A stretch of DNA of 62,892 bases, filler included, from Psammoneis japonica (lineage: Eukaryota), in assembly GCA_008632985.1 (NCBI GenBank). It is 3 parts of 3 records of this genome, joined end to end, with 100 filler letters (N's around TTAATTAATTAA, not from the genome) between each part and the next. Parts side by side here need not be neighbours in the genome. Positions count along the whole stretch, not along the records: positions 1 to 23,816 come from QPGO01000433.1; positions 23,917 to 48,174 come from QPGO01000430.1; positions 48,275 to 62,892 come from QPGO01000463.1. The stretch is one strand, 5' to 3'. Position numbers and translations under genes: made by a program. Positions 1 through 50,071 of the stretch are shown one piece after another. Position 1 is the stretch's first letter. Each line of letters begins with the position of its first letter. Under the pieces are notes generated by a model. The model worked only from the letters and a program-made list of their open reading frames with translations, was not told the DNA's origin and did no database searches.

Positions 1-504
1 GAAAACCACCATGAATCGACCACTAGTCTCAGCAGCGCAGCTTCGTCCATGGTGGCAGCAACCGCTCAAAGTTTTGCAAACACGTGGTTCGTGACAGATG
101 ATGATTGTTAAATACGCGACGCACATGCTATAGACTTCTAAATGACATCTAATCGTTACTAATGACAATCTGGCTACGCTGTTTCGTCATTTCACGCTGC
201 TGGCAAAAACGACCGTCGTCGCACAAAGGCGGCTCAGACAGTCATTAGGTAGTCACATGCCTCCTCAGACCTTTTCATTTTCCCCGCAGTGTCTGAAGCA
301 CTAGAAAGTCGTTCTTGGAGATGCGGTCTACGACTCGCACATGCATTGATGGAGCGATGGACACCTGTGGTGCCAAGGATGCGAACTGTGACAGAGACAG
401 ATGTGTTTGATTTGTGTTTAAGCAGGACACCCATTGCATCTAAAACAACTGACGACTCGGAACTTCACACACACTGCATCTAACAACACGTCCAGCAGCG
501 GGCG

Positions 505-960
505 CTGCTGGTTTGGTTGCCTCCGGTGTCGTCGCCACCACCGCCTCATCCGGTGTTGCCACCTTCAGCGTTGCCACCAGCTTGGTCACCTCCAGTGCTC
601 GGAACTTGTCGCACAGGACAGGCAAGCTCTTCTGCTCTCATCCAGTGTTGTTGCCACCTTCAGTGTTGCCACCAGTTTGGTTGCCTCCAGCATCGTTGCC
701 ACTGCCATCTCATCTGGCGATGCCACCGCACCTTGTGCACCACCGCCAGTTTGTTTGCATCCAGTGTTGTTGCCATTGCTGCCTCATCCAGCGCGGCCAC
801 ATCCAGCAGCGCCGCCACCGGTTTGGTTGCCTCTGGCATCATCACTGCTGCCATCTTGTCCATTGTTGCCACCTTCAGCATCATCACCGCCAGTTTGGTC
901 ACCTCCAGTGTCGTCACCACCGCCATCTTGTCCAGTGCACATGTCAACACTGCAGGGTTG
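505..960. repeat. Degenerate tandem repeat, probably decayed low-complexity coding sequence
   Basis: Recurring motifs GGTTTGGTTGCCTC, GTTGCCACCTTCAGC and GGTCACCTCCAGTG; minus frames read ATKP../ATLKVAT-like repeats. Confidence 0.65.
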
Positions 961-1099
961 CTGAGAACACTTTTTTTGTTCTCTCTTGTGCCCAGACATG
1001 GCCAGCAACAGCATTGCAGCCACATTGGCAGATTTGAGCAGTGGGAATGGGTGAAATGCTCAAAGCTGGCAGCGGCTCTGGCACAAGCAGCAGTGAAAG

Positions 1100-1335
1100 C
1101 AGCAGCACTGCCACTGGTGACAGAAGTGGTGGCACTGCTGCTGGTGGCAGATGTGGCAACATTGCTGCTGGCAGTGGATGTGGCAACACTGCTGCTGGCA
1201 GTGGATGTGGCAACACTGCCACTGGCAGCTGCAGCAGCAGAAGTGGTGGTGATGCCACTGCCACTGGAGTCAGAAGTGGCGATGCTGCAGGTGGTGTGGC
1301 TGGTGGCATGGCTGGTGGCGGCAGAAGTGGAGACA
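1100..1335. repeat. 27-bp minisatellite with degenerate flanking units
   Basis: GCAGTGGATGTGGCAACACTGCTGCTG-like units at 1144, 1171 and 1198. Confidence 0.75.
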
Positions 1336-2399
1336 AAGCTGGCTGCAGCAAAACATTGTGCTGGGTTTTTTGAGGAAATTTGCCAGCTTTGCCAGCTTGG
1401 TCCAGTCTGGGTCAAGTCTGACTCACTTGGGTGCTTCACTCTCACGGCCAAGAAAGCAGCACCTGGTTGGATGTCCTGCCTGGCTCTTGCAAACAAATGA
1501 ACCGTTCATTGCAAAAATGCAAAACAAATGGGCACAGCTGGTGTCTGCCTTGCCACCAAGCAGTGTGTTTTGTCATCGCACGACAATGAGCAGCAGCAGC
1601 AGAGGTTGACTGGGTGTGTTCAATCCCAGCAACACACACGCTCTTGAGGTCGGCCCAAGAAGGTTCATGCCCATTTTGGCAATGGGGACACACTCTCTGG
1701 GTCGATCCAAGGTTCGCACCAATTTTGGCAATGGTGGGGAGCTTTCTGTTTTTCCTGTGCACCATTTTTGAGTGTGTTGTTCAACTTCTGGTCTGAGCTC
1801 CTTCTTGCCAAGATGTTGGGTTTGTGGTGAAATTGGAGAGGTGCTGCCATTTTGTTTGTGGAACTCCACAATGGCAGCAAAAAACAACCCATGAGTGTGG
1901 CAGATTCTGGTTGACAAGGCAAGAACTTCTTCTTTTGTGCAGCCATTGAGCAGCAAATCAAGGTGAAACAACAAAGGGTTGCCCACCAAAACAAAGCACA
2001 TCAGAGCTCAAATTCATGTGCAAGCTGGGGCAATTCCCAAAGGTTTGAAGTGGCATGCTGTTGGCTGACCCAGCTTGATGAGAGGTTGAAAAATTTATGT
2101 GGGACAAGGTGAGGAAGAAATCATGTCTTCAGCCGTGACTGCACGGTGTGCAGCCCATCTAATTTGGTGACGAAATGCCCAAATCTCAATGTGCTGATGC
2201 TGTGTTGCAGTGATGCTGTCAGTGCATGTGGTCAACATGCACCCAGAGATTCAATCTCATTGAAGTTGAAATCGGTCACATTTTTGCCACCTCGGAACAT
2301 GAATTCAAAGGCTTCTTTGTCCTTTGTCCATCTGCCTGATCATTCACAATTGTGAGTCCCAGGCCATTCTCCTGCATTAAAGTTGTCACAACCCACCTG

Positions 2400-3555
2400 A
2401 AAACTCACACTGCAGATGCCAATGACTGAAATCAACAACCAGCATCAGCTGATCAAGGGAAAAAGGAGATGGTGAGCGGCCTTGCAATCTCACTCACTTC
2501 GGGAAGACCAAAGGAGTCTTGACAACTCCACAGCATTTGAAATTCTGCAGTTTGCAAAAGATGAAATGGGAGTGCCTCAACTTGTGAAAGTTCCCTCCAG
2601 TCATTCATTGGAGAGGTGAGAGGACAACTTGACGTGGTTTTTGAGGACATTGATGCTGTTTTTGACATGTCGCCAGTCACCAGTCACTCACGCTGCACCA
2701 AGACCAGTGCTGTGATCTTGATTGCCCCCCCCCCCCCCCAGTGTTTCAACTGTGACTCCTGCAATCATGCTGATGAGAAAGATGCCATTGCCTTCCTGGA
2801 TGCTTTGCTGGGGGTCCAGATCTGATCAAAAAGCTGGCAATTTTGAGGTCATGGATTCCAGCTCATTCCCCCAGTTGCAGATGGCATTCACTGCTGCTGT
2901 GCTTTGCAGCCCATCCATCAAGCAGCTTGGCAAGATCAAATGGGATGACAAGAGCTCAGCCCACCCCAGTGTCCTGGACACAGAGAACACCCAACTGCTC
3001 CTCTGCTGCTCTCCAAGGGCTGCAAGACCAAGGCAAAAGAGCTGGGCACAGCTGGGCATTGTGTGCACATGGTTGCTCCAGCTCACCTGACTGCTGATGT
3101 CCCAGCTGCAGGTGGCACCAGAGAGAGTGGTGACCAGCCCAGGCACCGTTGTGCATGAAGAGAGACAGAGAAGTTGGGGACAAGCTGCTTTTGTTGGAGC
3201 AGCACTCAAGACCAAGGACAATGCCAAGTGCGCCACATGCAAGGCTGGTCTTGCCCGTGCTTGCTCTCTGCGCCAGCATCTCCAGCTGACATGACCACCT
3301 CAAGAGCCAGCCCATGCAGCCCCTGATGGCCCAGCTGTGCCTTTGACCCAGCCAATGCTGAACATGCTCATGCAGCAGCCATTGGCTGGCTGGTGCTCTT
3401 GCCAAGAAGACCCCCAGAGAGCATGCCACACCTTCTTTGTGACAGCCAACAAGCTTGGGCACTGGGCTGAAGACTGTCCTGACAAGGAGAGTGGCAGCAC
3501 TGGCACAGCAGCAATGGAGGCTCCTGCGTTCACTCTCCAAGCACTGAAAAGATGA
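2400..3555 (+). mobile_element. Possible decayed retroelement gag remnant
   Basis: Only a partial zinc-knuckle-like motif (NKLGHWAEDCP at about 3450-3480) inside the hypermutated domain; extent is a guess. Confidence 0.3.
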
Positions 3556-5159
3556 AAGAAGCAAGATGATTTGCAACAAAGCTTTTTCCTGACACTTCTT
3601 CTTTGCCAGAAATTTCCCAATCAAAAGACTTTGTGGTCACCCAACCAAGAGCATGATTTTGCATTTTTCACATTTGACTTTCTTGTTGTTCTTCTCCATT
3701 GTCACATTGCTCAAGAGTTTGGTGCCACTGTGGAGCATCTTTGTGCTCCTGGAGCTCATCTGTTCAAGTGCTGGTCATTGTGATGCTGAGTTCACAGTGC
3801 CAACAACCAACAACATTGCAACAAAAAATCATTGCACCACATTGTCACTTTCAAAAGAGGAGTTGTTGCATCCTTCCTGAATGTGGCACAATGTCAAGCA
3901 GCAACAGCAGCCATTGTGGCAAAGGCAAAGGTCACAGCAAAGGCCGGCATGACAGAAGTCATCGTGCTAAGAAATTGTTGTCACAGGTGGTTGCCACAGC
4001 AATGACAACCACCACACAGCCTGCTTGTGACAGCAAAGATGCCAAAAACATCCAACACAAAAGAGCAGTGGCCAAGGGAGGACTTAAAAACTGAGGCAAA
4101 GACACCAGTGGTCTCTGGCTCTGAGGAAGACATGCCCAAACATGACATTGCAAATGTTGATGTGCCAACTGACAGCAGCAGCATTGGATTGGCCTCAACC
4201 TTTGATGAGCACTCTCAAGATGAGGGTGAAGATGAGAGCACAAAGTGCAAAGCACGAATTTGAATTCCCCTGGAACGTCATTCGAGATGGGGTGGAAATC
4301 AACCTGTTGAGAGCAAAGAGAGAGCTTCAAATGAGCTCCTCAAAACAAAGCTTGAAGATCAGATGAGATGCATGCTGGACCATCTCAAAGCTGGCAAAGC
4401 GCAACTCACTGAATCAGAGGCAAAACATCTCCAGGTGTGCTCCACTGGGGGACGTCACCAAATCAAGCCCCAACCAGCCCGTTTGCCACCCATCACACAC
4501 TGCAAATCAGACCTTTTGAATGAGCCTCAAGGAAAGGAAGTGCTGGTGGCTGTGATTGCTGGTGCTCGTTGCCTTCAAGAAGAAGCCTTTGCATGCCACG
4601 TGAGAGCAGACAACTGCCACAAGGCTGGACAACTGCCTCTGGCTGCTGTGCAGAAAAAGGGGGTCTTGAGAATGAGGTGGTCTTGGAACACATCCAAGAT
4701 CTTGAAAACTTGATTGCAAACTTGACAGATGTCTCAGTGACTGCTCTGAGATGCTGAGCAACAACAAGCTCAAAGTGCTTTCACCCAAGGCCATGCAACT
4801 CAAGCCCTGCACTGGACAGTCTGCCAGCACTTGGTGCTTGTGGAAGAAAACAACAAACTGGCCCTCACATGAATGACCCTCAAAAGGTTCTTGGAAATGG
4901 AAGAAAAGAAGGAAAAGAGGCTCAAAAGAAGGAGTCTAAAGAGCTTGCAAATGCAATGATGGACACCAACAAAGCCCTTGGCAATGCCATCAAGAAGAGC
5001 AACAAGAACAACCCAGTGGATTGAGTGAATTGAAAGAAAGTGCAAGATTGAGAGCTGTGATGATGTGCTTGGAAATGCACTCACTGACAAGAAACTCAAG
5101 GAGCCAGTGATGAACATGAAGCATTGAGCTTTGGCAGTGTTTTTGTGTCTGCAATGTGT

Positions 5160-6200
5160 TTGCATTTGGTCGTCATTCATTGCCATTGATTGTTGCAACA
5201 TTCTTGGCAGCTGTGGAGCAACCTCTTTGTTGGCAAGTTTGGTGGGATGTCAAGTGATTGGCGCAGGAAACCGCCAACTCAGGTCTGCTCAAAGCATGCA
5301 AGCAAAAGTCACATCATTGGAAAGCCATTGTTCTGCAGATGTTGTCATTGCTGTCAATTGCTCCACAGCTTTTGATGGTTGTGGAGTCATGCCTGCTTCA
5401 TTGAATGCCAAGCAGAGCTTGTTGGAAGATGCGTTCCAGCCCTGGGCGGGACTCTGTGTGACACAGTGGGCCCATGGAACTCTGCGTGCAAGCTCCGCAG
5501 CACACAAGAATTCAATTGATGCATGTGTTTGTCTTCATCATCAAACAAACAACCAAGTTTGTGGTGCATTTGTGCCTGTCCACACTCAAAGGCTTTGAAC
5601 ATCCACCTGCCCTGCACCATTTTTAAGACATTTGAGAATGGTGCAGAAGAAAAAATGTTGAAAGTGGTTGAATGGACAGCCCAATGATTGCACAGCAAAA
5701 TGATGCAAAATTCCACCAAAGTCATGCAGGAACATTGACACACCACGCGATCCAAAAAAACTGCCGATGTCACAGTTCAGTGGTGTGAGGCCCCACCTGG
5801 CTGGAGCTGGAGTGCATTGGAGTGGAGCCCAGCCGGCATTTGGTCGCATCAGCGCCAACTCAGATCTGCTCAAGGCACAAAAACAAAGGCCACCTCATTG
5901 GGAATCTCTTGTCCTGCAGATGCTGTCATTGCCGTCAACTGCTTCATGACTCTTTGCACTTGTTGAGTTGCGCCTGCTTCATTGAATGGAAGCTGGTGTG
6001 TGGCATGGAGCCCAGCCAGCATTTTGGTGCATCAACACCAACTCAGATCTGCTCAAGGCTCCAGGACAACAAAAGTCACCTTGGTGGAAAGCTCTTGTTT
6101 TGCAGATGTTGTCATTGCCATTGATTGTTTCACAGCTCTCAGTGGCCATGGAGTTGCACCCACTTCATTGAACAGAAACTGGTGTGTGGCATGAAGGCCA
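5160..6200. repeat. About 185-bp degenerate tandem repeat (3+ units) interrupted by a MITE
   Basis: CCAACTCAG(G/A)TCTGCTCAA...TGCAGATG(T/C)TGTCATTGC...CTTCATTGAA recurs at about 5273, 5855 and 6039. Confidence 0.75.
5428..5818 (-). mobile_element. MITE family A, heavily TpA/CpG-mutated copy
   Basis: Starts GATGCGTTCCAG and ends CTGGAGTGCATT; body is the reverse complement of 43053-43442. Confidence 0.8.
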
Positions 6201-6225
6201 GCCACGTTTGGATGTGGGGACCCAT

Positions 6226-6622
6226 TGCAGCATGCATGCAGACAAAAGGTCATTTTTGTCACGCCCTTTGTGACATTTAAAGGCTGCAACACGTCGCCGT
6301 GATGCATTGACTCTTGTCAGCAGCTGTGTGTTGCACTCCTCCCCATGTGTCACGCATCCGTGCGGCTCTTTGCCAACGTGCACTGACACTGCACGGTTTT
6401 GGCGGAACAGTGTGGGTACGTGCGAAGGAACGTGCAGAACTGCACAGAGTTTTACGCGTTCGAAAGTGATCAACGTTGCTGCAGACAACTCCCACTCGGG
6501 TTTCGAACCCCTGGCCTCCTGCCCAGTGGTTACGATGTGCCACTCCGCTGTGAATTCACAACGCAGCATGCGTGCAGACAAAAGGTCATTTTTGTCACGC
6601 CCTTTGTGACATTTAAAGGCTG
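6226..6622 (-). mobile_element. tRNA-derived (Pol III A/B-box) element with about 88-bp direct repeats, copy 1, runs into gap
   Basis: Reverse complement of 33442-33869; the minus strand has CAGCGGAGTGG and GGTTCGAAACC; this copy retains several TA sites. Confidence 0.75.
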
Positions 6623-8825
6623 NNNNNNNNNNNNNNNNNNNNNNNNNNNNNNNNNNNNNNNNNNNNNNNNNNNNNNNNNNNNNNNNNNNNNNNNNNNNNN
6701 NNNNNNNNNNNNNNNNNNNNNNNNNNNNNNNNNNNNNNNNNNNNNNNNNNNNNNNNNNNNNNNNNNNNNNNNNNNNNNNNNNNNNNNNNNNNNNNNNNNN
6801 NNNNNNNNNNNNNNNNNNNNNNNNNNNNNNNNNNNNNNNNNNNNNNNGGCTCAACGCCAAGTGTGCCAGTGACTTGGCTGCCATTGCTTTGAGCACAAGT
6901 GAGCAAGTTAAAGAAAAACACTTGCGTGCCCCAAAGTGGGTCACACAAGTGTGCCCAGCTCCTTGGCCAGGGCCATTTTACAAAATGTGATGGGACTCAA
7001 ACAATCTGCATGGGAGAGCAGCTTGGTGGCCCAGTCTTGGAAGCTGTCTTCAATGCACAACCTTGGCTTCATGTCAGTGCCATCTTGAGCCACAGCCTCA
7101 GCTTGCTCTTGGGAACTCATGGCAGCAAGCTCAGCATTGGCGTGCGATGGATGAACAAAGTCAGAACATCCACAAGCTTTGTCAGTGGCAACAATGGCTG
7201 GCCTGTTGGGGTTGCCATTGGCTCTCACATCTGACGCCATTGTGGCATTTCAGAAGCTTCCAACACAGCTGCATCATGATGCCTGCACAAGAATGACGTT
7301 TGAAAACTGTGCTTTGCACTGTTGGCCTGCACCATTTGCTGCACCTTTGCACCACAGAATCCACAATGTCTGTTGCAGCAGGCTTGTTGCATCAAGTTCT
7401 GTTGTTCAGACCTGCTGCAACAGCAAAAACATGGTCTGCTTGTCTTGTTTTGCCAGGTCAAGTTGATTGCCAAGGCTTGCCATCTGTGAAAAAGAGCGCG
7501 CGGATCTCAGATCCAACACACGCTCAAATGATCTCACTCCATTCAGCAAGCAGCTCTCCTGCTGGTCTTTTGACCTGCTCAAAGACTTTCTTGTGTGCAA
7601 GAACATGCACCACACCCACTCGCTACAAACACACCAATGCATGTCACCCCCCAAGTGAAAATTTTGCTTGTTGGTTGTCGCTGCAAACCTGTCTTTTTTG
7701 GCTGGAAAATTGCAGTGGCATTTGTTGTGGCCACCTTGCTCTTGCTGCACATGGCTGTGACACAACTTTTTGCCACATTGTGCACTGGCAAGATGCAGAA
7801 AAGTCAAAAAGTGGACGAACTTCTGCTGAGTGCTGCCAGCCACCTGTGCCACTCTGGGGCAGCTGCAAAAGCTGTGCTGGGGGGCCATCTCTTGTTGGCA
7901 CAAATTTCACAAAGAAATTTGGTGTGGGTCAGGCACTTCAAAAAGCTGTTGAGCAAAGATGTGGGGGCAACTTTTGCAAAAAGTTGAGCCAGTTTTTTGA
8001 AAGCAGCTGGTGCTCCAACCCCACATGCAAGTGCGAAAAGTGTCGAATGCACTCAAGAAGTCATGAGGACCCTGCACGTGTGCTTTCAACACCACACTTG
8101 TGTTTTCACCAGATGTGCGGCCCTCCCTTGCAAGCACACACACGTTTTGTTTCTGCAGCGTACAACTTGCTGACCTGGACCTCGCCCGCGCATTTCTCGT
8201 CCTCATTGTTCACATGTGTCTGACAACATTTTTTTCATTCAACAGGGTCAGGAAAGCAGTGACCTGAACACCCCATTCAAATGACTTTTAACAACTTCAT
8301 TATTTAAGAAGTGCAGAAACCATCTGCATAATTGTTGTGCACAATTATTGTGATCTGTATGACTTAAGGGGTTCTCGAAATGCCAATCGACTGTAAATGG
8401 ATCTCCAAAGCTGAATAAGAGGTAATGTTGGACATATTCTGTGGAGATCTCCAGCCACATCATTATTCGTTTGTAAACAGCCCTTTTGTTTAAGAAGGAG
8501 AAAGTCATGTCGAAAACCCATTTAAATGTTCATCATCATTTAAAGTGGAAAACCCTTAAACATAATTTTCATTTATTAGTCGTCAATAGCCCAAGCAAAC
8601 CGCCATTCTTCGATTTCGGACATTTTTCAACTCACAAACCGCACGAAAATTCGAAAATGCGAAGGCCCTACTCTCCTACAAGAAGAGACGAAAGGCAAAA
8701 CACGACTACAAAACAAGAAAACGATAGATCATCAAGCAAGTGATACAAACCAAAAAGTCTACAAATAGATTCAGGAACATTTTTCATCAACCACTCTCCA
8801 TACCGTACGACTGTGGAACCGACAA

Positions 8826-41784: not shown

Positions 41785-42402
41785 GTTGTCTTCAACTTTG
41801 ACTGTTGGACAGTGTGGTCTCCTGTTGAGTCTCTTGCAGTGACTGGCGGAGCCAAAGATCTGAATCCAACAAAGCAGCAGCAACACCCACGATGCCAAAG
41901 AACACTGTCCAGCTGCAAAGAGCAAACACGCATGCTTTGTTTCAAAGTGGCTGTTTTCATTTTCAAGAACAGAAACACCACGGGACCAAGATGTCTTCAA
42001 CTTTGACTGTTGGACAGTGTGGTCTCCTGTTGAGTCTCTTGCAGCAATTGGTGGAACCGAAGATCTGAATCTGACAAAACAGCAGCAACACCCACGACGC
42101 CAAAGAACATTGTCCAACTGCAAAGAGCAAACATGCATGCTTTGTTTCAAAGTGACTTTTTTCATTTTCAAGAACAGAAACACCGTGGGACCAAGATGTC
42201 TTCAACTTTGACTGTTGGACAGTGTGGTCTCCTGTTGAGTCTCTTGCAGTGATTGGCAGAACCAAAGATCTGAATCTGACAAAACAGCAGCAACACCCAC
42301 GACGCCAAAGAACGTTGTCCAGCTGCAAAGAGCAAACATGCACGCTTTGTTTCAAAGTGACTGTCTTCATTTTCAAGAACAGAAACACCATGGGACCAAG
42401 AT
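41785..42402. repeat. 205-bp tandem repeat, 3 copies
   Basis: TTCAACTTTGACTGTTGGACAGTGTGGTCTCC at 41791, 41996 and 42201. Confidence 0.92.
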
Positions 42403-43052
42403 GACCCCCAATTGCAGAGACTGCTTTTTAGTGAAAACAATGCCGAGACCCAGCAGCTGCTCTTTTTGGCCATTCTCCAACTTTCCTGCCTTGTCCCAAG
42501 CTTGCTTTTGATTGTTCAACCAAGCTCCAAGTCTCTTTCCAATGTCAACGTGAGGATGAGGCACTTTTCAATTTCCCTCGTGCACCGCAAATTGTCCAAG
42601 ATGAGAAAACACAATCTCCCGTTGATTTTCCAACAAGTCTCACTCCATTCCAGCCTTCTTCAGTCGTTTCTGTCAAGAGGCGTCCAGCTTGCCCTTCCTT
42701 TTGGCTGTCCTTCACTTGACTGGCCAACTTCCAAGGTTCTCCCCATTCCCCATCCTCTTTGTGATGCCTTGGCAGGTTGCAATGGTGTCCCTCCCATTTC
42801 TTGAATTGCTTCAGAAGAGAGAACATTGTGCCCCATTGATTTTCCAACATGCCCCACTCAACTCCAGCCTCCTTGAGTTTTTCTTCTTTAAAGTGTCAAG
42901 CTTGCCAAGCTTGTGCTCTCGTCATCATTGGTCATCCAACCAAATTCCAAGGGCAAAGCCATCCTCAATGCATTTGTTGGGAACATTGCAATTGCCTTCT
43001 CTCTCCAAGCAAACAAGAGTGGGCTGCAAGCACGACTTCATTTGTCATCGCA

Positions 43053-43442
43053 GACGCGTTCCAGCTCTAGGTGGGACCTCGCACTGCTGAACTGTGACAT
43101 CGATAGTTTTTTGGATCGCACCGTATGTCGCGCACGTAGAAAGGTACGTGACTTTTGTGAAATTTTGTATCATTTTGTGGTGCACTTATTGAGCGATCCG
43201 TCCAACAACTTTTGACATTTATTTCTTCTACGCCATTCTTAAATGTCTTAAGAATGGCGTAGGGCAGGCGCATTTGCAAAAACGTCAAGTGGCAATGGTC
43301 ATAATTGCACCACAAACTTGGTCGTTCATTTGATGTTGAAGACAAAAATGTCCATCAATTAGATTCTCGTAATGCGGAGCTCGCACGTAGAATTCTACGG
43401 GCCCGATGTCACAAAAAGTCCCACCCAGGACTGGAACCCGTC
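43053..43442 (+). mobile_element. MITE family A, young copy (390 bp, TSD CGCA)
   Basis: TIR GACGCGTTCCAG..GGTGGGAC / GTCCCACC..CTGGAACCCGTC; CGCA at 43049-43052 and 43443-43446; removing it restores the host frame WSVCDDK. Confidence 0.92.
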
Positions 43443-44558
43443 CGCACACGCTCCACATGACACCAGCCTTTTTGAGCTTTTGTTTGAGAGAAATGTCCAG
43501 CACCCCACTCTTTTTGGCCTGTCTTTGTCTGTTCAGCCAATTCCCCAAGTTCACCCCTCCATCAAGAACGTGGCCATGACAAATGTCGCAACTCCCTTTG
43601 TGGTCTGCAGTGCAAGAGCAAACCACATGTGCGATCCCAGGAACTCTTGTCCTTGCATTCTCTGACTGCCCCACCCACATGATGACATCCCTCATTTCAA
43701 AAGACACCAAATCAGGAAGCACAAAGGAATCGAGGACACGAGGAGGGAACTCTTCACCCTTCAAAGGCCTGTGTTTGGGCAAAATGCATTTCGATGGACT
43801 GGCGGCATCGGAGTTGTTTTCATTCAGGGCTGGAACACACGTGTCAGGGTGTGCAACTGGGCCAGCCAAGCCGTCGTGTGTGAGTTGTTGAAGGGCAAGG
43901 TTTGGAGTTGGCTCCAGCAGATGCCATCTCACTTCACAATTTTGGCCAGTCCTTTCATTCTTTAAAACAGAAACACCACCAAGAACCAGCAGATTCCTGC
44001 ATTGCAGAGACTGCTTTCTAGCAAAAACAGCGCCAAGATCCAGCAGTTGACTCTTCTGGCTGTTCTTCAGTTTTCCAGCCTTCCATGCTTGCTTTTGATC
44101 TTTCAACTAAAGCTCGAGTCTCGCTCCATTTTCAATGTGATGAAAAGGCACTTTGCAGCTGCCTTCGCACACCACAAACTGCTCGAGAAGAGAAAACACA
44201 GTCTCCCACTGCTCAGCCCAAATGCCCCACTTAACTCCAGCCTTCTCCAATCGTTCCTGTCTAGAAGCACTCAGTTTCCCTTTCCTTTTGTCTGTCTGTT
44301 GCCTGTTCAGCCACACTCCAAGATTCACCCCATCCTCTTTGTGACCCTGCAGCACCCTGCAATGGCCCTCACACACCACAAACTGTTTGAGAAGAGAAAA
44401 CACAGTCTCCCATCTCTCAGCACAAATGTCCCACTCAACTCCAGCCTGCTCCAGTTGTTTCTGTCAAGAAGCGCGCAGTTTCCCTTTCCTTTCATTTTTC
44501 CTTTGCATGCCCAACCATCTTCCAAGGTTCTCCCCATCCTCTTTGTGACCCTGCAGCA

Positions 44559-44954
44559 GACGCGTTCCAGACGCAGGTGGGAATCCGTGTGACATTGGGC
44601 CCGTAGACTTCTACGTGCGAGCTCCGTAGTAAAATTATACGGTAATTAAAATGTCAATGATCGCCAACAGAAAATGAGGCAATTTTGCGAACGCACAAAC
44701 TCGCACATGATTGAAGTACATCATTTTTTACTCAGCCAGTTACATTCTTCAGACATTGAAGAATGTAACTGGCGCATTATTGTTTCTATAAATTTGTTAT
44801 ATAAAACGTCTGGGGCTTCGCAAAACAGCGAGTCTGGACAATTTTTTTTAAATGTCACACGTAGAAATCTACGTACGAAACATACGACGGATGATAAAAA
44901 TTATTGTTGTCACACGTCAGCACTACGAGCTCCAACCTAGGGCTGGAACGCGTC
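44559..44954 (+). mobile_element. MITE family B, young copy (396 bp, TSD AGCA)
   Basis: Perfect 12-bp termini GACGCGTTCCAG / CTGGAACGCGTC; AGCA at 44555-44558 and 44955-44958; the empty site matches the paralogous HA unit at 44341-44370. Confidence 0.93.
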
Positions 44955-47103
44955 AGCACCCCACAATGGCCCTCATGTGCCGCAAATTGTTCAAGACAAG
45001 AAAACACAGTCTCCCATTGATTTGCCCACAAGCCCCACTCATCTCCAGCCTCCTTGATTTTTTTCTTTGTCAATGTCAAGCTTGCCAAGCTTGTGTTTTT
45101 GCCATTGGTTGTCCAACCAAATTCCAAGGGCAAAGCCATTCTCAGCGCATTTCTTGGGAACACTGCAGTTGCCCCCTCTCTCCAAGCAACCAAGAGCATG
45201 CTGCAAGCACGACTCCATTTGTCATCGTTCACACTCCACTCAACTCCTGCCTTCTTGAGCACTTGTTGACAAAAAACATCCAGCACCCCACTCTTTTTGG
45301 CCCACTGTTGTCTGCCCAACCAATGCTCCAAATTCACCCCCTCCTCTTTGTGGCCATGGCGAACTTTGCAACTCCCTTCGCAGTCTCCATGCACCAAGAG
45401 CAAATCGTTCATGCAATCCCAGGAACTCTTGTCTTTGCATTCTCTGATTGCCCCACGCATGATGCCATTTGTCGTTTCCAATGGCATCGAAACGGGAAGT
45501 GTGAAGGAATCGAGAACACAAGGAGGGTGCTCGCATTCCTCCAAAGGCCTTCCCAATCTGTTGCTCTCTTCAATCACAAACAAGACATCCTCGCACAATT
45601 TGGGATCTGGACCAACCATGGCCTCAAAAGCAAGAGCAAAACTTTCACGTCCATTGACATCCTCAGACAATGATTCTTTGTCAGAAGAAGCTGGAGCAGG
45701 AACAAGAACACAACCACAGTTTTTGTCACAGTCCCTTTCTGGCTCACACATCCAATCATTTGACATGCAAGGACTGAACTCCGAATGGGATCAGCCATCA
45801 CAGCCAACTCTCAATCTGCCTTGTCAACACCTGCAGCCAGTGATTTGCAGTTTGCAATGACAGATTTGGGTGCAGACTTTGCTCTCAACAAAACCTTTTC
45901 CCATTTTGCAACAGACATTTTTGGGCTGCCGCTGACAGGAAATGTGGCAATGTCATCCTTCAAAAGGAGTCAAGAGGAGTCTGCAAACGCCTGTGCCTGG
46001 GAATTTGCAGAGTGAGGCGAGACTGCATGACTCACATTGAGTTTGTGAAAAGCTGCTTGAATGGCAAAAGGCACCAGGGGACACATTGAAAGATTGTTTG
46101 AATCGACGGGCGTGCAGTCACAGATTTTGCCTCAATCTGGAACGCACAGCATGACAGGAACCACAATGTTGCACTCCGCACTTTCCTGCAGCATCTTCCT
46201 CTTGATGCGCGGCCCAAACAATGGCTCATCATTGAAGCTCCAAACAGCTGCAGCTTTGTGAGCCGCAGCATTGTCACCCCTTTTTGGCAACAGAGTTTGT
46301 GCTCCAAACTTGTCAAGCTTGGATCCCAACACGGCAACTTGCTTTGGAGATTTGGTGCATCAACGAGGGGTGGCCGCAAGAAAAAGTCGACAGTCAATGG
46401 GAAGGACGCCATTGCAGGGACCGCAACCAAACAAATTGCCAGCACCTTCCATCTCGTGTGCTTCATCAAAGATGCCAAACCTGATGCTGCCACCCAGCTT
46501 GTTTGAAGCCTTGCCAACCTTGGGCAACAAGTTGCATGTGCAGCTGACAAACTGCAACTTGTCATCATTGGAAGAAAGAAATGCTGCAATCTCATCGACA
46601 GATGTTGTGCATGCCTCGGATTGACTGGCTTGGCTCGCCACAATCAATCTCAAGTGAGGCACATTGTCAAATGCTCTGGATGAATCCAAGACTCCCAGCA
46701 TCTGATCCACAAGTGCAAGCTTTGGTGTTGCATGAGTTGCCGCTTGCACCCCTTTGAGTCACAATCTTGCAAGCGTTTTGAGGCTCAGCAATGTTTTGCC
46801 CCATTCCGGGGGAAGCTGAACATTGGCTTGGCAATGTTTCTTGTCTTCAGATGATTTCAGCATGCCAACCACACCTCCATTTGAATTGCTCCCTCTCCCT
46901 GCGGAGGATTTGTTGTCCTCTCCACAGCAGTGACTTGCAAGAGAGTCAATGACATCATTGTGTTGACCACCGCAATCTTGACAGCAGCAGCTTTCTTGAT
47001 TTTCTGCATGTGACGCTTTGATCTCTGAAGAACCTGTTTTTGTTCTTTGATCAATCTTGCTGGCAACAGTTCTGTGATCTTGTTGCAGATGCTCAATCCC
47101 AGA

Positions 47104-48174
47104 GACGCACTCCAGGTGCAGGTGGCAATCCGTGTGACATTGGGCCCGCAGAATTCTGCTTGCAAGCTCCGCAGTGAAATCATCAGGCAAGTGACACGTC
47201 AATGATCGCCAACAGAAAATGATGCAATTTTGCAAATGCACAAACTCGTCTGTGGTTGAAGCACATCATTTTCTGCTTGGCCAGTTGCGCTCTTCAGACA
47301 TTGAAGAATGCACCTGGCTTGTTTGTGTTCCCATGATTTCATCAAATGAGATGTCAGGGGATGCGTTCCAGGTCTGGGTGGGACCTCGCGCCACTGAACT
47401 GTGACATCGACAGTTTTTTGAATCTCATCGTATGTCGCGCATGCAGAATTCTATGTGATTTTTTGACATTTTGTGTCATTTTACGGCACACTTGTTGAGC
47501 GCTCCGTCCAAAAACTTTTGACATTTTTTGTTGCAGCGCGATTCTACAATGTCTTGAGAATCGCGCAGGGCAGGTGCATTTGCAAAAACGTCGAGTGGCA
47601 AGAGGCACAATTGCACCACAAACTCAGCAGTTCATTTGATGTTGAAGACAAACACATCCATCAATTAAATTCTTGCACTGCGGAGCTCGCACGCAGAATT
47701 CCACGGGCCCAATGTCACACGGAGTCCCACCTGGGGCTGGAACGCGTGTCAGGGGTTTCGCAAAACAGCGAGTCTGGAACAATTTTTTGAAATGTCACAT
47801 GTGGAAATGTGCACACAAAACATGCAACGGATGACAAAAAACAACTGTGTCACACGTCAGTGCTGCGAGCTCCCACCGACGGGTTCCAGTCCCAGGCGGG
47901 GCTTTTTTTGTGACATTTGCCCCGCAGAATTCCACGTGCGAGCTCTGCAGCTCGCACTCTGGTCAACAGATGTGCTCATCTTTGACACAAAACAAACGGC
48001 CAAGTTTGTTGCACACACATCTCTGTTCGTACTTGCAGTTTTGGACAGTGCGCCTGCCCTGCGCCATTCTCGAGTGTCTCGAGAATGGCGCAGAAGAAAA
48101 AAATGTCAAAAGTTGTTGAATGGATCGCCTGACAATTGCGCTGCAAAATGATGCAAAATTTCACCAAATTCATG
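47104..48174. mobile_element. Nested MITE cluster: old B copy (47104-47359 plus 47751-47877) with A copies at 47360-47750 and 47878 to the gap (reverse)
   Basis: Colinear with the 44559 and 43053 copies; AGGG flanks both sides of the 47360 insertion. Confidence 0.85.
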
Positions 48175-48274
48175 NNNNNNNNNNNNNNNNNNNNNNNNNN
48201 NNNNNNNNNNNNNNNNNNTTAATTAATTAANNNNNNNNNNNNNNNNNNNNNNNNNNNNNNNNNNNNNNNNNNNN

Positions 48275-49906
48275 GGCAGTCTCCCTCTCGGCCGATGGAG
48301 CAGGAGTGAACGAGACGGTCGTAGTCACTGGAGTCGAACTCAAAGAGTCGTCCACAGGTGCACACCACATGCCGCAATAAACCAGCTCGTTAGGGTCAGA
48401 GGGTTCGTCTGTAGGCGGAGACGTCGTCTGCTCGGGAGGACCAAAAGGAATGCCCGAAGAGGGGTCCGACACAGCAGATAAATTTGCCGCAGCGGTGGTT
48501 TCGGTGTTGACAGACGGTTTCCCGGTGTGTTGAGCGGAGGAGTGGCCTTGACACATGCCCTTCTTGCCCGTTTCCTTGTTCACACACTTGTCGCACCAGT
48601 GCCAGGTCGTGCCTTTCTCGTCGGTGACAGTGGCACCTTTGTGAACGAAACGCCAGGCCGGCTTGGGTGGTTTCTTGGAAGGGTCAGTCTTCCGGACATC
48701 CGGAGGGTCATCCTTGGACTTGTCCGCCGTGCCCTTTTTGTCCTTCTTGCATTGCTCCTTGCAGGTGGGACACGTGCGTTTGGTGTGCCCAACCTTGCCA
48801 CAGCCGCAGCAATGCTTTTCCGAGTTGTCCTTGGCGAGGTTGGATTCCGGGAGCTTGGCTGCTAAGGCAGGCCAATCTTCATCGCTAATGAGTTCGCCAT
48901 GGGTCTTGGTGATCCAGCCAATGAGGCCAACAGGTCCAAGATCCGCACAGTCGGCATCCTTGGGGACTTCTGCCGGGTCACGCAAGCGACATTTGCGCTC
49001 CAAGCGCTTGACGGAGTCGAGCTTGGCAAAAACTTGACGATTGAAAAACTCGGAGGATGTCTTTGACACCTTAGATAAAACAGCAGACCCAGTTTCAACT
49101 GGCAACGCACAGTCCGTCTGCATGATCTTGAGCAGGCGCAGAGCTTCGGTTGCAAGCTCGGTGCAGTCTTCGCCAGGGCAGTTGTCCAGAGTTAAGTCGT
49201 TCAACTTTTCCTTGGCGGCCTTGACGTCAACCAGAGCACTGGCGTTGCAGGTGTCCAGAGCCATCATAAATGAGACAGACCCCGGAAGATCCTTGCAGTT
49301 CTTCAAGTGATTAAACTTGGTTTCAATCTTTTCACGGAAGGTTTCGGTGATGCGCGACTTGACGATGAGTTGTGACAAGCCGATGTCATCGATTTCATGC
49401 TGATCGTAGCCTTCGTCACCTGCAGCCGCCACACGGGTCTCACATTCCTTCTCAAGGTCTTTGACAGTGAAGGCGTGAAGATGATCAAAAAGGTGCACGA
49501 CCTTGCCGTCGACTTTCTTGAGATGGTAGAAAGTTTCTTGTCCGTGCGACTCGATTGAGTCCTGAATGGTCTTGACGAAGTGGTCTTTGTCCAGTTCAGC
49601 ACTGGAACCGTTGGACAACTCAATCTGGCCGTTGAACTTGGATGTGGTTGCCGAAGCGAGTTGATCTCTGAGAGATCGCTCGACAGAGTCGACAGCTTTC
49701 GGATGGCGACGTTGCGAGGCAAAACGGCAGGTGCGGGTGTCGGTCTGCTCGCACTTGTTGTTCAGAGCCGAACCACCCAGATGCACTCCATGAGAGTGGT
49801 GGATGCCGCCGCGAAGCGGCGTGGGGATCGTAGGAGGGTTGGTCGAGGTTTGCATCTTGGCGAAGGCCTCAGCAAACATCTTGACGGTGTCAGGATCCAT
49901 GGACAT
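48275..49906 (-). mobile_element. Ty1/Copia-type (diatom CoDi-like) gag ORF, truncated by gap
   Basis: CCHC knuckle CCGCGKVGHTKRTC; second motif WHWCDKC...HSSAQH; upstream LTR/PBS-like region. pol is not visible, so the superfamily is inferred. Confidence 0.75.
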
Positions 49907-50071
49907 GGTTGTGGATGATTCGACACAGAGGATCGATTAGCAGGTGGGGATTGCGACATAGATGATCGCCGTTGGATTGCGACATAGAAGATCGCCGTTG
50001 GATGGGATGTCGTCTGTAACGAGACGAACGAGTGGCAGCAACTCCGTTGCGAGTTGATGCCGGTGCGTGGA

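What the first reader, a model, noticed from the sequence alone, without database searches (positions are those of the whole stretch)
330..50000. Repeat-targeted TpA->TpG/CpA hypermutation: a reverse-RIP-like candidate genome-defence process
Seen: four domains (about 0.3-8.2, 11.9-16.6, 19.2-22.0 and 32.0-50.0 kb) made of TEs, repeats and pseudogenes have almost no TA, while adjacent genes have normal TA and the borders are fairly sharp. Copy comparisons show TA replaced by TG or CA, i.e. A->G on either strand, while AA runs persist. Known: fungal RIP (CpA->TpA) and 5mC decay (CpG->TpG/CpA) both lower GC, and neither removes TpA. Inference: a targeted A:T->G:C mutator acts on repeats or heterochromatin. 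Candidates are a TadA/ADAT-like adenine deaminase acting on DNA (TadA-derived editors favour TA) or Pol-eta-type error-prone repair (WA->WG). I do not know of a published description, but I could not search. No effector gene is evident in this window.
Basis: partly seen in the sequence, partly recalled or inferred. Interest (0 to 1): 0.95.

Follow-up and report, generated by a model that had tools for sequence, protein, structure and literature searches.

The report
TpA-erasing hypermutation in diatom repeats
Half of this diatom DNA stretch has had almost every TA step turned into TG or CA, the mark of a targeted A-to-G mutation process that has so far been reported only once, in an unrelated alga.

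Summary
Six HMM segments (32,175 of 62,892 nt) have TpA observed/expected of 0.03-0.08, against 0.56-0.64 in the genes between them. The longest TA-free run is 2,493 nt.

Copy comparisons inside the window, a protein-family comparison and contigs built from reads all show TA changing to TG or CA in place. The count of YpR steps is unchanged, and the losses of TA and CG (about 2,011) match the gain in TG+CA (about 2,025).

The two processes can be separated: some blocks have lost TA but kept CpG. The TpA process also has a wider motif, 5'-TAY-3'. TTAA survives best; ATAT and ATAC are extinct.

The nearest named relatives of a conserved gene are all diatoms. A 2026 preprint shows the same TpA-only hypermutation arising de novo in Bigelowiella natans, so the kind is no longer unpublished. 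Seven completed literature searches found no such report for diatoms.

"Repeat-induced" targeting in the RIP sense is not supported, and Pol eta is contradicted. A TadA/ADAT-like DNA adenine deaminase fits best but is unproven, and no effector gene lies in the window.

The parts
482..8288 (.). TA-depleted block 1 (rho TA 0.03, CpG 0.25, TG+CA 1.83)
   Evidence: HMM segmentation; per-kb profile. X1 contigs match it at single-copy depth except for 5322-6643.
11837..16580 (.). TA-depleted block 2 (rho TA 0.08, CpG 0.21). Holds a degenerate ~0.9-kb inverted repeat, 12863-13684 against 14684-15567, at 68% identity.
   Evidence: X1 k-mer depth is 48-72, i.e. single copy.
19147..21709 (.). TA-depleted block 3 (rho TA 0.07, CpG 0.27). 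The stretch 19203-20524 is high-copy in X1 (depth about 3,600-4,100 against about 56).
32213..43067 (.). TA-depleted block 4, first part (rho TA 0.06, CpG 0.48). Its 32.3-38 kb part keeps CpG at 0.61.
43068..43396 (.). TA-normal, CpG-rich island (rho TA 0.59, CpG 1.30). It is the least-mutated copy of the ~390-nt dispersed element.
43397..44603 (.). TA-depleted block 4, second part (rho TA 0.07, CpG 0.39), with HA-domain remnants.
44604..44938 (.). Second TA-normal, CpG-rich island (rho TA 0.80, CpG 1.61). Its mutated counterparts lie at 47103-47365 and 47748-47882.
44939..49937 (.). TA-depleted block 4, third part (rho TA 0.08, CpG 0.66). Holds the 2,493-nt TA-free run at 44939-47431.
48275..49936 (-). 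Open 554-codon gag-like ORF with a CCHC zinc knuckle (P0241). It is a mutated member of a large family that has no Pfam domain. Composition: Tyr 0.5%, Cys 4.0%, His 3.6%.
   Evidence: At 13 columns where relatives have Tyr, this ORF has Cys 6, His 4, Phe 1 and Tyr 2.
40119..45790 (-). Array of degenerate HA (helicase-associated, PF03457) domain remnants at 40119-40445, 42548-42895, 43288-44106, 44110-44463 and 44858-45790.
   Evidence: Pfam, (E from 2e-22 to 1.5e-3).
47360..47751 (+). Mutated copy of the ~390-nt dispersed element. Other copies lie at 43053-43445 (+, least mutated), 40860-41180 (+), 5425-5800 (-) and 47878-48174 (-).
   Evidence: Alignment A1; counts.
5322..6643 (.). Very high-copy repeat (X1 depth 3,337 to 61,110 against about 56). 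An inverted 93% copy lies at 33470-33869. At 6372, 6374 and 6381, 26-49% of the laid depth reads TA where the window has TG or CA.
41787..42403 (.). Tandem array of 3 x 205 nt at 93% identity. Its copies differ by TG/CA/TG, CG/TG/CA and CA/TG/TG at single sites, which are in-situ DNA-level changes. Further arrays lie at 41092-41333 (2 x 120) and 44161-44558 (2 x 204).
8581..10795 (+). Control: sulfatase gene copy 1. It is an inverted duplicate of 16798-18981 at 83% identity, with normal TA (0.56) and CpG (0.86).
16798..18981 (-). Control: sulfatase gene copy 2 (638-codon open frame at 16907-18820), with normal TA (0.59-0.61).

Best explanation
The window comes from a diatom. About half of it consists of degenerate, non-genic blocks made of repeat relics, a gag-like ORF, HA-domain pseudogenes and small dispersed elements. 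Two separable transition processes have acted on these blocks in place, at the DNA level.

(1) A TpA-specific A:T->G:C process turns TA into TG when the A of the top strand changes, or into CA when the A of the bottom strand changes. It has run nearly to saturation and prefers an A followed by a pyrimidine (5'-TAY-3', which is 5'-RTA-3' on the other strand).

(2) The usual decay of methylated CpG to TpG/CpA.

Together they funnel both self-complementary YpR steps into TG/CA without changing G+C content. Neighbouring genes are spared, and the borders are about 100-300 nt wide.

Shown here: the signature, its direction, its occurrence in situ, its regional limits and its sequence context. Inferred: the TpA process is enzymatic and directed at silent or foreign-type chromatin, as in the Bigelowiella natans hypermutation. 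Also inferred: the chemistry is deamination of adenine to hypoxanthine in DNA by a TadA/ADAT2-like or other deaminase-fold enzyme encoded elsewhere in the genome.
For: Composition:
- TA is 93 observed against 1,796 expected in 27,577 nt.
- The YpR share of dinucleotides is 0.2406 in depleted DNA and 0.2401 in genic DNA.
- Relative to genic rates, TA loss (about 1,055) plus CG loss (about 956) equals the TG+CA gain (about 2,025).
- TG and CA gains are balanced in every block.

Direction and in-situ origin:
- In 9,759 aligned columns of intra-window repeats, TA pairs with CA 50 times, TG 45 and itself 44, and with any other dinucleotide at most 6 times each. TG:CA double differences number 208, against 2 in the 2,164-column gene-duplicate control.
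- At 17 TA sites of the least-mutated copy of a 5-copy element, the 57 aligned dinucleotides in the other copies are CA 24, TG 17, TA 5 and other 11. At 9 of the 17 sites both TG and CA occur.
- Tandem copies differ by TG/CA at single sites.
- Outside evidence: at 13 columns where at least 60% of 13 relatives of ORF P0241 have Tyr (codon TAY), the window has Cys (TGY) 6, His (CAY) 4, Phe 1 and Tyr 2. Other conserved residues are mostly kept: S 9/9, K 7/7, P 12/13. Its Tyr content of 0.5% is below all 150 listed relatives, whose minimum is 1.17%.
- In a high-copy repeat, 26-49% of the read-derived depth has TA where the window has TG or CA.

Context:
- Survivors are TTAA 28 of 93, ATAT 0, and ATAC/GTAT 0.
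- An additive per-strand model with rates T 3.36 > C 1.75 > G 1.17 > A 0.26 reproduces all 10 context classes.
- In 59 polarised events the mutated A is followed by C 32, T 11, A 9 or G 7. Informative sites split 35 against 7, p = 1.5e-5.

Separability: blocks at 32.3-38 kb and 47.4-50 kb have TA at 0.08-0.18 but CpG at 0.61-0.92.

Precedent: mutation-accumulation lines of B. natans gained 230 of 231 mutations as A->G or T->C, all at TpA, in two integrated viral regions at about 1,000 times the background rate (Results read).

Deaminase fit: an early TadA-derived DNA editor prefers YAC, and ABE8e-YA prefers YAY over YAR (passages of PMC12528748).
Against: - Everything rests on one 63-kb window. 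No genome was available, so a genome-wide association with repeats, chromatin or methylation is untested.
- No de novo events were observed; the signature may be ancient and the process extinct.
- No effector gene is known. A->G on one strand cannot be told from T->C on the other, so a thymine-directed chemistry fits equally well.
- TG:CA pairs cannot be assigned to a TA or a CG ancestor one by one.
- The polarised sets are small (59 events, 17 sites, 13 columns). The 59 events are biased towards slow contexts, and palindromic contexts are counted twice in the model fit.
- Two TA-normal islands inside block 4 show that the process does not hit everything in a block, or that they are very young.
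- No TA-poor window was seen in 573 kb around ALG11 relatives, and no Tyr-poor member among 150 relatives of P0241. There is therefore no evidence yet that other diatoms share the process.
- X1 may be the assembly's own data.
Confidence: 0.7

Rival explanations
1. The same regional TpA process, but the chemistry acts on thymine rather than adenine. An enzyme modifies T in TpA, for example by hydroxylation to 5-hydroxymethyluracil or a further derivative. The modified base mispairs with G or is mis-repaired, giving T->C in the context 5'-RTA-3'.
For: In double-stranded DNA, T->C at RTA is the same observation as A->G at TAY. Nothing in the window separates the two. From recall, with no call behind it: dinoflagellate 5-hydroxymethyluracil is enriched at TpA.
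Against: No thymine-modifying enzyme or modified base is documented for diatoms in anything I read. The TAY>TAR hierarchy has a direct parallel in TadA-derived adenine deaminases acting on DNA, and U33-A34 is the natural ADAT/TadA context (recalled). The B. natans authors also favour adenine deamination.
Confidence: 0.12
2. RNA-level A-to-I editing of transposon transcripts (ADAR-like, or ADAT-type mRNA editing) is fixed in DNA by reverse transcription. On this view the TA-poor state was inherited at insertion.
For: A-to-G hyperediting of retroelements is known in animals. One gag-like ORF lies in a TA-poor block.
Against: - Copies that arose by DNA duplication in place, namely tandem arrays at 93% identity and dispersed copies, carry different outcomes (TG against CA) at the same site.
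- Both strands are hit equally.
- Whole blocks with sharp borders are affected, including HA-domain and kinase remnants and unique DNA.
- No reverse transcriptase was found.
- From recall: ADARs are confined to animals and favour G, not a pyrimidine, 3' of the edited A.
Confidence: 0.04
3. There is no dedicated enzyme. TpA is lost through spontaneous or damage-induced mutation that accumulates only where transcription-coupled or chromatin-dependent repair is absent.
For: The blocks are non-genic. CpG decay shows that they have been evolving without constraint.
Against: - Unconstrained DNA elsewhere does not approach TA O/E of 0.03. The minimum was 0.147 in 1,029 control windows.
- The loss is confined to one dinucleotide with a 13-fold dependence on the next base. 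AA, AT and the other steps are kept.
- In B. natans the equivalent process runs at about 1,000 times the background rate and only in some lines.
Confidence: 0.05
4. The blocks are foreign or viral DNA whose donor was natively TA-poor, or TA was removed by selection such as avoidance of a nuclease or of a transposon target.
For: In B. natans the targets are integrated viruses. The blocks here have almost no recognisable genes.
Against: Polarised comparisons show TA as the ancestral state, with independent TG/CA outcomes per copy. The changes destroy conserved Tyr codons, which is the opposite of selection on a working gene. No viral gene family was detected.
Confidence: 0.03
5. Sequencing, base-calling or assembly artefact, for example modified bases miscalled in heterochromatin.
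For: Methylated regions are known sources of systematic long-read errors (recalled). CpG and TpA are both affected.
Against: De Bruijn contigs of run X1, with k-mer depth about 48-72 that is equal to the flanking genes, reproduce the TA-free sequence with 0-15 differences per piece. Protein-level and copy-level polarisation are internally consistent. The window holds scaffold-type N gaps.
Confidence: 0.02

Closest known systems
TpA-specific hypermutation of integrated viral DNA in Bigelowiella natans (Mettrop et al., bioRxiv 10.64898/2026.01.13.699255; abstract, Results and Discussion read)
   Same: - The changes are exclusively A->G or T->C at TpA, giving TpG/CpA.
- The process is regional, next to normally evolving genes.
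- The long-term signature is TpA depletion with CpA+TpG gain. 48 of 115 windows here pass that paper's own thresholds.
- TE-type genes are enriched among that paper's TpA-poor CDS.
- No effector has been identified, and ADAT2-type adenine deamination is proposed.
   Different: - The host is from another supergroup lineage: a diatom (stramenopile) rather than a chlorarachniophyte (Rhizaria).
- Depletion here is near-complete (rho 0.03-0.08), against 0.45 in their NCLDV region.
- The targets here are repeat or TE relics and pseudogenes, with no viral genes found.
- CpG decay is superimposed here. The words CpG, context, trinucleotide and diatom do not occur in their main text.
- The TAY>TAR context is new here.
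- Here there is only the fossil signature, with no measured de novo rate. Their supplements were not available to me and might hold context data.
Repeat-induced point mutation (RIP) of Neurospora and other fungi
   Same: Both are regionally confined, dinucleotide-specific transition hypermutation that ruins repeats and mobile elements and leaves sharp compositional domains.
   Different: The direction is opposite. RIP makes TpA from CpA and lowers G+C; here TpA is destroyed and G+C is unchanged. Duplication as such is not the trigger here: an 83%-identical 2.2-kb duplicate is untouched. Features of RIP are recalled, plus the abstract of PMC7296669 seen in the listing.
Deamination decay of 5-methylcytosine at CpG
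   Same: It accounts for roughly half of the TG/CA gain. CpG rho is 0.21-0.66, and CG pairs with CA 129 times and TG 96 times in copy comparisons.
   Different: It cannot remove TpA. TA loss also occurs where CpG is retained: 32.3-38 kb and 47.4-50 kb.
TadA/ADAT2-3 tRNA adenosine deaminases and TadA-derived DNA adenine base editors
   Same: The target A is preceded by U/T. YAC, or YAY>YAR, preference is seen on DNA (passages of PMC12528748). This matches the TAY>TAR order found here.
   Different: These are natural tRNA enzymes. DNA activity is known to me only for engineered TadA and, as cited in the preprint, for amphioxus and trypanosome ADAT2. No such gene is in the window, and no link to chromatin targeting is known.
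AID/APOBEC editing of retroelements and viruses; ADAR hyperediting
   Same: Both are deaminase-based mutational restriction of mobile or foreign nucleic acids.
   Different: AID/APOBEC enzymes deaminate C, not A. ADAR acts on double-stranded RNA in animals. Here both DNA strands of resident chromosomal blocks are hit in situ.

Membership tests
B. natans-type TpA hypermutation | Mutations are almost only A->G / T->C, and they fall on TpA. | tested here: met
   When TA does not pair with itself, its partners are CA 50 and TG 45, with any other dinucleotide at most 6. Copies of the dispersed element show CA 24 and TG 17 among 57 aligned dinucleotides. Conserved Tyr has become Cys or His at 10 of 13 columns. 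AA and AT are not depleted.
B. natans-type TpA hypermutation | TpA depletion is coupled to CpA+TpG enrichment, in clusters of adjacent windows. | tested here: met
   48 of 115 1-kb windows pass the preprint's thresholds (rho TA <=0.43 and rho CA+TG >=1.52). They lie in six contiguous segments.
B. natans-type TpA hypermutation | The process is confined to regions beside normally evolving DNA. | tested here: met
   HMM borders; rho TA is 0.03-0.08 inside and 0.56-0.64 outside.
B. natans-type TpA hypermutation | The targets are of viral, transposon or other foreign origin. | tested here: inconclusive
   Found: a gag-like CCHC ORF of a 519-member family without Pfam domains, a dispersed ~390-nt element, two high-copy stretches and HA-domain remnants. 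Not found: viral, RT, integrase or transposase domains.
B. natans-type TpA hypermutation | The de novo rate is raised about 1,000-fold, episodically, in mutation-accumulation lines. | not testable with these tools
   This needs cultures and resequencing. There is only a hint: among the 40 of 319 X1-against-window differences that were shown, 6 are TA<->TG/CA and about 12 are CG<->TG/CA inside TA-poor blocks.
Fungal RIP | C->T at CpA, creating TpA and lowering G+C. | tested here: not met
   TpA is destroyed, CpA is gained and G+C is unchanged: 0.47-0.50 inside against 0.46-0.50 outside.
Fungal RIP | It is triggered by sequence duplication (about 0.4 kb or more, about 80% identity or more; recalled). 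| tested here: not met
   The 2.2-kb inverted sulfatase duplicate at 83% identity has normal TA. Most TA-poor DNA has no copy at >=90% likeness in X1. Past duplication cannot be excluded.
5mC decay at CpG | CpG is lost to TpG/CpA. | tested here: met
   CpG rho is 0.21-0.66. CG pairs with CA 129 times and TG 96 times. Methylation itself was not measured.
5mC decay at CpG | It explains the whole signature. | tested here: not met
   It cannot remove TA. The TA loss of about 1,055 is as large as the CG loss of about 956.
TadA/ADAT-type adenine deaminase action | The target A is preceded by T/U, and a pyrimidine is favoured 3' of it. | tested here: met
   TpA-only loss. The 3' neighbour order is T,C > G > A, and informative sites split 35 against 7. 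This parallels YAC and YAY>YAR in PMC12528748.
TadA/ADAT-type adenine deaminase action | A deaminase that acts on DNA is present. | not testable with these tools
   No genome was held, and no deaminase lies in the window. Stramenopile-specific deaminase-SAM-Tudor proteins are described in passages of PMC3239186. This is a lead only.
Pol eta WA->WG mutagenesis | A after A is mutated as well as A after T. | tested here: not met
   AA rho is 1.22-1.34 in depleted blocks against 1.10-1.24 in genes.
ADAR-type editing fixed by retrotransposition | The changes precede insertion and are strand-specific to the transcript. | tested here: not met
   Tandem and dispersed DNA copies carry independent TG against CA outcomes. 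TG and CA are balanced in each block.

The most novel reading that the evidence does not exclude
Diatoms carry an active, chromatin-guided DNA adenine-deamination defence, a 'reverse RIP' with the motif TAY. It would be homologous to the process just seen in the rhizarian Bigelowiella, and so ancient within SAR or wider. Together with CpG methylation it erases both self-complementary YpR steps from silenced mobile or foreign DNA. It removes Tyr codons, TAA/TAG stops and TA-type insertion targets while leaving G+C unchanged. Its effector could be an ADAT2 paralogue or one of the stramenopile-specific deaminase-Tudor proteins.
Probability: 0.3. Interest if true: 0.95.

Novelty: new member of a known kind. 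Interest (0 to 1): 0.8.

Why it matters
Directed hypermutation of mobile DNA is known from fungi (RIP, C->T) and from animal APOBEC/ADAR systems. An A:T->G:C counterpart acting on chromosomal DNA has a single report, a 2026 preprint on a chlorarachniophyte.

Finding the same signature at saturation in a diatom would mean three things. First, the process is not a curiosity of one alga; it may be widespread in the SAR lineages that dominate marine primary production. Second, it acts on ordinary repeat and pseudogene blocks, not only on integrated giant viruses. Third, it has a defined three-base motif (TAY) that narrows the search for the enzyme.

Diatoms include genetically tractable species, so the effector becomes findable. 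A natural DNA adenine deaminase would also interest base-editing research.

There are practical consequences. TA-free DNA keeps long open frames, because TA>TG/CA changes create no new in-frame stop and can remove TAA and TAG. Gene predictors will therefore call spurious proteins that are Cys/His-rich and Tyr-poor. TE-dating methods that assume uniform substitution will also be badly off in such genomes.

Tried and rejected
- **Whole genome:** none is held, so no genome-wide scan, TE consensus building or search for deaminase genes was possible.
- **Earlier notes of this scan:** nothing for this genome, its look-alikes or the word set. The 'TpA' word search returned only phage and operon notes that do not bear on this.
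- **Expression:** no RNA holder is listed. Run X2, recorded as 'DNA?', has depth only over the genic bins and the high-copy repeat, and none over the other TA-poor bins. X3 laid nothing.
- **Identity of the blocks:**
  - Pfam on 129 ORFs of 120 aa or more, 150 ORFs of 70-119 aa and 20 further ORFs gave only HA domains, one weak Pkinase fragment (33987-34211) and sub-threshold noise inside the TA-poor blocks.
  - The HA ORF 43288-44106 had no homologue at E<=1e-5.
  - P0241 had no relative in metagenome contigs.
  - 12 long relatives of P0241 carry no Pfam family.
  - The atlas look-up gave only diatom 'hypothetical' clusters, one set with zf-CCHC in 41% of members.
  - There are no tRNA genes and no Rfam matches, including a permissive search of the high-copy repeat, whose T-loop-like motif therefore stays an unverified impression.
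- **Other diatoms:**
  - 0 of 1,029 windows around ALG11 relatives are TA-poor. These are gene-rich metagenome contigs, so this is a background control and not a test of absence.
  - None of the 150 listed relatives of P0241 is Tyr-poor.
- **Polarising TG:CA pairs:** this is not possible site by site, because a TA or a CG ancestor gives the same pair.
- **Context from tetranucleotide mass balance:** it is confounded by CpG decay, and its balances are off by up to 161 counts per context. I used survivors and polarised events instead.
- **Rejected readings:** RIP, Pol eta, biased gene conversion (not dinucleotide-specific; AA/TT and AT are kept), artefact, native composition and RNA editing. See the rival explanations and the membership tests.
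- **Literature:** seven completed searches found no report of TpA-directed hypermutation in diatoms. The library lacks most subscription journals, and the preprint's supplements are closed.

Full report
**1. The observation**

A per-kilobase profile shows TpA observed/expected (rho) of 0.00-0.14 over about 0.5-8.2, 12-16.5, 19.1-21.6 and 32.3-48 kb. TG and CA stand at 1.4-2.1 there, whereas the genes in between have TA at 0.54-0.84.

A two-state HMM on TA positions gives these depleted segments:
- 482-8288
- 11837-16580
- 19147-21709
- 32213-43067
- 43397-44603
- 44939-49937

Together they make 32,175 of 62,892 nt. Their rho TA is 0.03-0.08, against 0.56-0.64 in the long normal segments.

The longest TA-free run is 2,493 nt. 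At the genic TA frequency its probability is about e^-106.

The joint criterion TA<=0.25 and TG+CA>=1.4 is met by 53 of 115 1-kb windows here. It is met by 0 of 1,029 windows in 80 metagenome loci, 573 kb in all, around relatives of the window's ALG11 gene. The minimum TA rho there was 0.147.

**2.

CpG is also strongly depleted in most of the same DNA. Rho CpG is 0.21-0.27 in blocks 1-3 and 0.39-0.66 in the parts of block 4.

The bookkeeping is exact. YpR dinucleotides make up 0.2406 of all dinucleotides in the depleted DNA and 0.2401 in the genic DNA, so only transitions within the YpR class have happened. Relative to genic frequencies, about 1,055 TA and about 956 CG are missing, and 2,025 TG+CA are in excess. 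One process adds G+C and the other removes it, which explains why G+C is the same inside and outside.

The two processes are separable. The DNA at 32.3-38 kb has TA at 0.08 with CpG at 0.61, and 47.4-50 kb has TA at 0.18 with CpG at 0.92.

**3. Is it real DNA?**

A search for public runs found three coded runs of one sample. De Bruijn contigs of X1 cover TA-poor bins at k-mer depth of about 48-72 and flanking single-copy genes at 55-78. Long pieces match the window with few differences:
- 1,226 nt with 0 differences
- 1,141 nt with 0
- 1,821 nt with 0
- 1,455 nt with 2
- 1,894 nt with 15 differences plus 5 gaps

This rules out an assembly or consensus artefact. X1 may, however, be the assembly's own data, so it is not an independent platform.

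The same table shows that most TA-poor DNA has no second copy at >=90% likeness. The exceptions are 5322-6643 (depth 3,337-61,110) and 19203-20524 (about 3,600-4,100).

**4. Direction of change, and where it happened**

Four lines of evidence bear on this.

(a) *All intra-window repeat alignments* (43 pairs, 9,759 columns). TA pairs with CA 50 times, TG 45 and itself 44, and with any other dinucleotide at most 6 times. CG pairs with CA 129 times and TG 96. TG:CA double differences number 208, against 2 in the 2,164-column control, which is the inverted sulfatase gene duplicate.

(b) *A ~390-nt dispersed element with five copies* (alignment A1). At the 17 TA sites of the least-mutated copy (43053-43445), the other copies show CA 24, TG 17, TA 5 and other 11 among 57 aligned dinucleotides. 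At 9 sites both TG and CA occur in different copies. This requires an ancestral TA hit independently on either strand after the copies separated.

(c) *Tandem copies of a 205-nt unit*. These arose by DNA duplication on the spot. They differ by TG/CA/TG, CG/TG/CA and CA/TG/TG at single sites.

(d) *Evidence from outside the window*. The open 554-codon ORF at 48275-49936 (-) carries a CCHC knuckle. It has 519 relatives at E<=1e-3 among 1.84 billion representatives. I aligned it with 13 of the top 16 hits. At 13 columns where at least 60% of them have Tyr (codons TAY), the window has Cys (TGY) 6, His (CAY) 4, Phe 1 and Tyr 2. Other conserved residues are largely kept: S 9/9, K 7/7, P 12/13, G 16/19. 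Its Tyr content of 0.5% is lower than in all 150 listed relatives, whose minimum is 1.17%. Other open frames in the blocks show the same composition: Tyr 0-1.3% and Cys 4-9%.

(e) *Read-level evidence*. In the high-copy repeat, 26-49% of the laid depth reads TA where the window has TG or CA, at 6372, 6374 and 6381.

Of the 40 X1-against-window differences shown, out of 319 in total, 28 lie in TA-poor blocks. Of those, 18 are transitions within YpR steps: 6 involve TA and about 12 involve CG. The other 279 rows were not displayed.

**5. Sequence context (new here)**

The 93 surviving TA are far from random:

| Context | Survivors |
|---|---|
| TTAA | 28 |
| CTAA/TTAG | 24 |
| GTAA/TTAC | 16 |
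| ATAT | 0 |
| ATAC/GTAT | 0 |

A model in which each strand's A is lost at a rate set by one flanking base reproduces all ten context classes. Examples are TTAA 56 observed against 55.9 modelled, CTAA 24 against 23.0 and GTAC 8 against 6.1. The fitted exponents are 3.36, 1.75, 1.17 and 0.26. Palindromic contexts are counted twice in that fit.

Survival alone cannot say whether the flanking base lies 5' or 3' of the target. The outcome can. In 59 unique events one copy keeps TA, the other has TG or CA, and the flanks agree. In these the mutated A is followed by C 32, T 11, A 9 or G 7, while the A of the unmutated strand is followed by A 20, G 24, C 10 or T 5. Informative sites split 35 against 7, p = 1.5e-5.

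The motif is therefore 5'-TAY-3', which is 5'-RTA-3' if one prefers to see T->C. This sample is biased towards slow contexts, because one copy must still hold TA.

**6. What the blocks are**

Recognisable content is thin:
- HA-domain remnants on the minus strand between 40.1 and 45.8 kb;
- one weak kinase fragment;
- the gag-like ORF;
- the ~390-nt element;
- tandem arrays;
- two high-copy stretches.

No reverse transcriptase, integrase, transposase, viral gene or deaminase was detected.

Two ~330-nt islands inside block 4 (43068-43396 and 44604-44938) have normal TA and high CpG (rho 1.3-1.6). They are copies of elements whose other copies are mutated. They may be young insertions or locally protected; I could not decide which.

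The 2.2-kb inverted sulfatase duplication (83% identity) that brackets block 2 is unmutated. Duplication as such is therefore not the trigger, and 'repeat-induced' in the RIP sense is not supported.

**7. Organism**

All named top hits of the ALG11 exon (30196-31077, -) are diatoms, with one exception: a row at 53% identity labelled Alexandrium tamarense, a dinoflagellate. The diatom hits are an Attheya transcriptome and Fragilaria crotonensis at 61%, Thalassiosira profunda and Seminavis robusta at 55%, and Cyclotella cryptica at 54%. The best unnamed hit is at 71%.

Genes are intron-poor; the sulfatase, for example, is a single 638-codon frame. The window is therefore from a diatom and not from Bigelowiella. 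I did not try to go further than that.

**8. Comparison with what is known**

The library holds one description of this kind of process, Mettrop et al., bioRxiv 10.64898/2026.01.13.699255. I read the abstract, Results and Discussion, and searched it for terms.

In mutation-accumulation lines of B. natans, 231 of 302 nuclear point mutations fell in two integrated viral regions. Of these, 230 were A->G or T->C, all at TpA, at about 6e-7 per site per generation, and only in some lines. The genome also holds 124 clusters that are TpA-poor and CpA+TpG-rich, enriched for RT and DDE domains. An ADAT2 homologue is proposed as the effector.

Their main text contains none of the words diatom, CpG, context or trinucleotide. 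Their supplements were not available to me.

Seven completed searches found nothing comparable for diatoms. The present case is thus a second lineage for a kind of process known from one preprint. It differs in four ways: it is at saturation, it acts on repeat and pseudogene blocks, CpG decay is superimposed, and it has a defined three-base motif.

As a rough inference only, I borrowed the B. natans rate (about 2e-5 per TA per generation, my arithmetic from their figures). At that rate, a survival of about 5% would need on the order of 1e5 generations.

**9. Mechanism**

*Shown:* a TpA-restricted transition process with motif TAY, acting on both strands equally (TG and CA are balanced). It acts on resident chromosomal DNA, within blocks whose borders are about 100-300 nt wide, and it is separable from CpG decay.

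*Inferred:* an enzyme directed at silent or foreign-type chromatin. No spontaneous or repair-deficiency process known to me removes one dinucleotide to 3% with a 13-fold dependence on the neighbouring base.

Adenine deamination by a TadA/ADAT-like enzyme fits best. Those enzymes act on A after U (recalled). TadA-derived DNA editors show YAC, or YAY>YAR, preference (passages of PMC12528748).

Pol eta (WA>WG) is contradicted, because AA is kept. ADAR-type RNA editing is contradicted by the in-situ, two-strand pattern. A thymine-directed chemistry (T>C at RTA) cannot be excluded with sequence alone.

One lead for targeting comes from Iyer et al. 2011 (passages of PMC3239186). They describe a stramenopile-restricted deaminase clade fused to SAM and 1-22 Tudor domains, and an LmjF36.5940-like clade for which they consider DNA-mutagenising activity. 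Neither has been tested, and neither lies in this window.

**10. Verdict**

The signature and the deaminase idea hold. The repeat-induction and Pol eta ideas do not, and CpG decay was overlooked. The claim that nothing has been published is overtaken by a 2026 preprint in another lineage. The finding remains of high interest as the first diatom case I could find, and for the TAY motif.

Noticed in passing
8581-10795 (+) and 16798-18981 (-): An inverted duplication of a sulfatase gene (83% identity) brackets TA-poor block 2. Copy 2 is a single 638-codon frame. Copy 1 is split into two overlapping frames near 9541-9626, and X1 contigs leave out one base at 9592. The frameshift may therefore be an assembly error or an allele rather than a pseudogene. 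X1 depth over both copies is 200-390 against about 56, which suggests further family members.
   Followed up: partly
43068-43396 and 44604-44938: Two ~330-nt islands with normal TA (0.59, 0.80) and high CpG (1.30, 1.61) lie inside the largest TA-poor block. Both are copies of elements that are mutated elsewhere in the window. They may be young insertions or protected (for example nucleosome-free or promoter-like) spots; this is undecided.
   Followed up: partly
5322-6643; inverted 93% copy at 33470-33869: An extremely abundant repeat, with X1 k-mer depth up to about 61,000 against about 56 for single-copy DNA. It holds a stretch that resembles a tRNA T-arm to the eye, but ARAGORN and Rfam (including a permissive search) found nothing.
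   Followed up: partly
48275-49936 (-): The gag-like CCHC ORF belongs to a large family: 519 relatives at E<=1e-3, 59 of them at E<=1e-30. Neither the window's ORF nor any of the 12 long relatives scanned has a Pfam domain. The nearest atlas clusters are diatom 'hypothetical proteins'. This is probably an undescribed diatom mobile-element protein.
   Followed up: partly
50813-52048 (+): An Ulp1/C48 protease ORF lies just outside block 4 and has intermediate TA (rho 0.32) with normal CpG (0.88). It may be a partly mutated element gene or simply a gene with low TA.
   Followed up: no
whole TA-poor DNA, e.g. 484-1497 (+), 7297-8220 (+), 44858-45790 (-): Many long open frames overlap on both strands, because only TGA stops remain. 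Their translations are Tyr-poor (0-1.3%) and Cys-rich (4-9%). Gene predictors would call spurious proteins here.
   Followed up: yes
23817-23916 and 48175-48274: There are two places with paired 44-N runs separated by exactly 12 bases. Single N runs lie at 6623-6847 and 55475-55596. The paired pattern looks like masking or a scaffolder's convention rather than biology.
   Followed up: no
33987-34211 (+): A weak protein-kinase fragment (E 2.3e-5, below Pfam's cut-off) lies inside a TA-poor block. It is possibly a pseudogene remnant.
   Followed up: no
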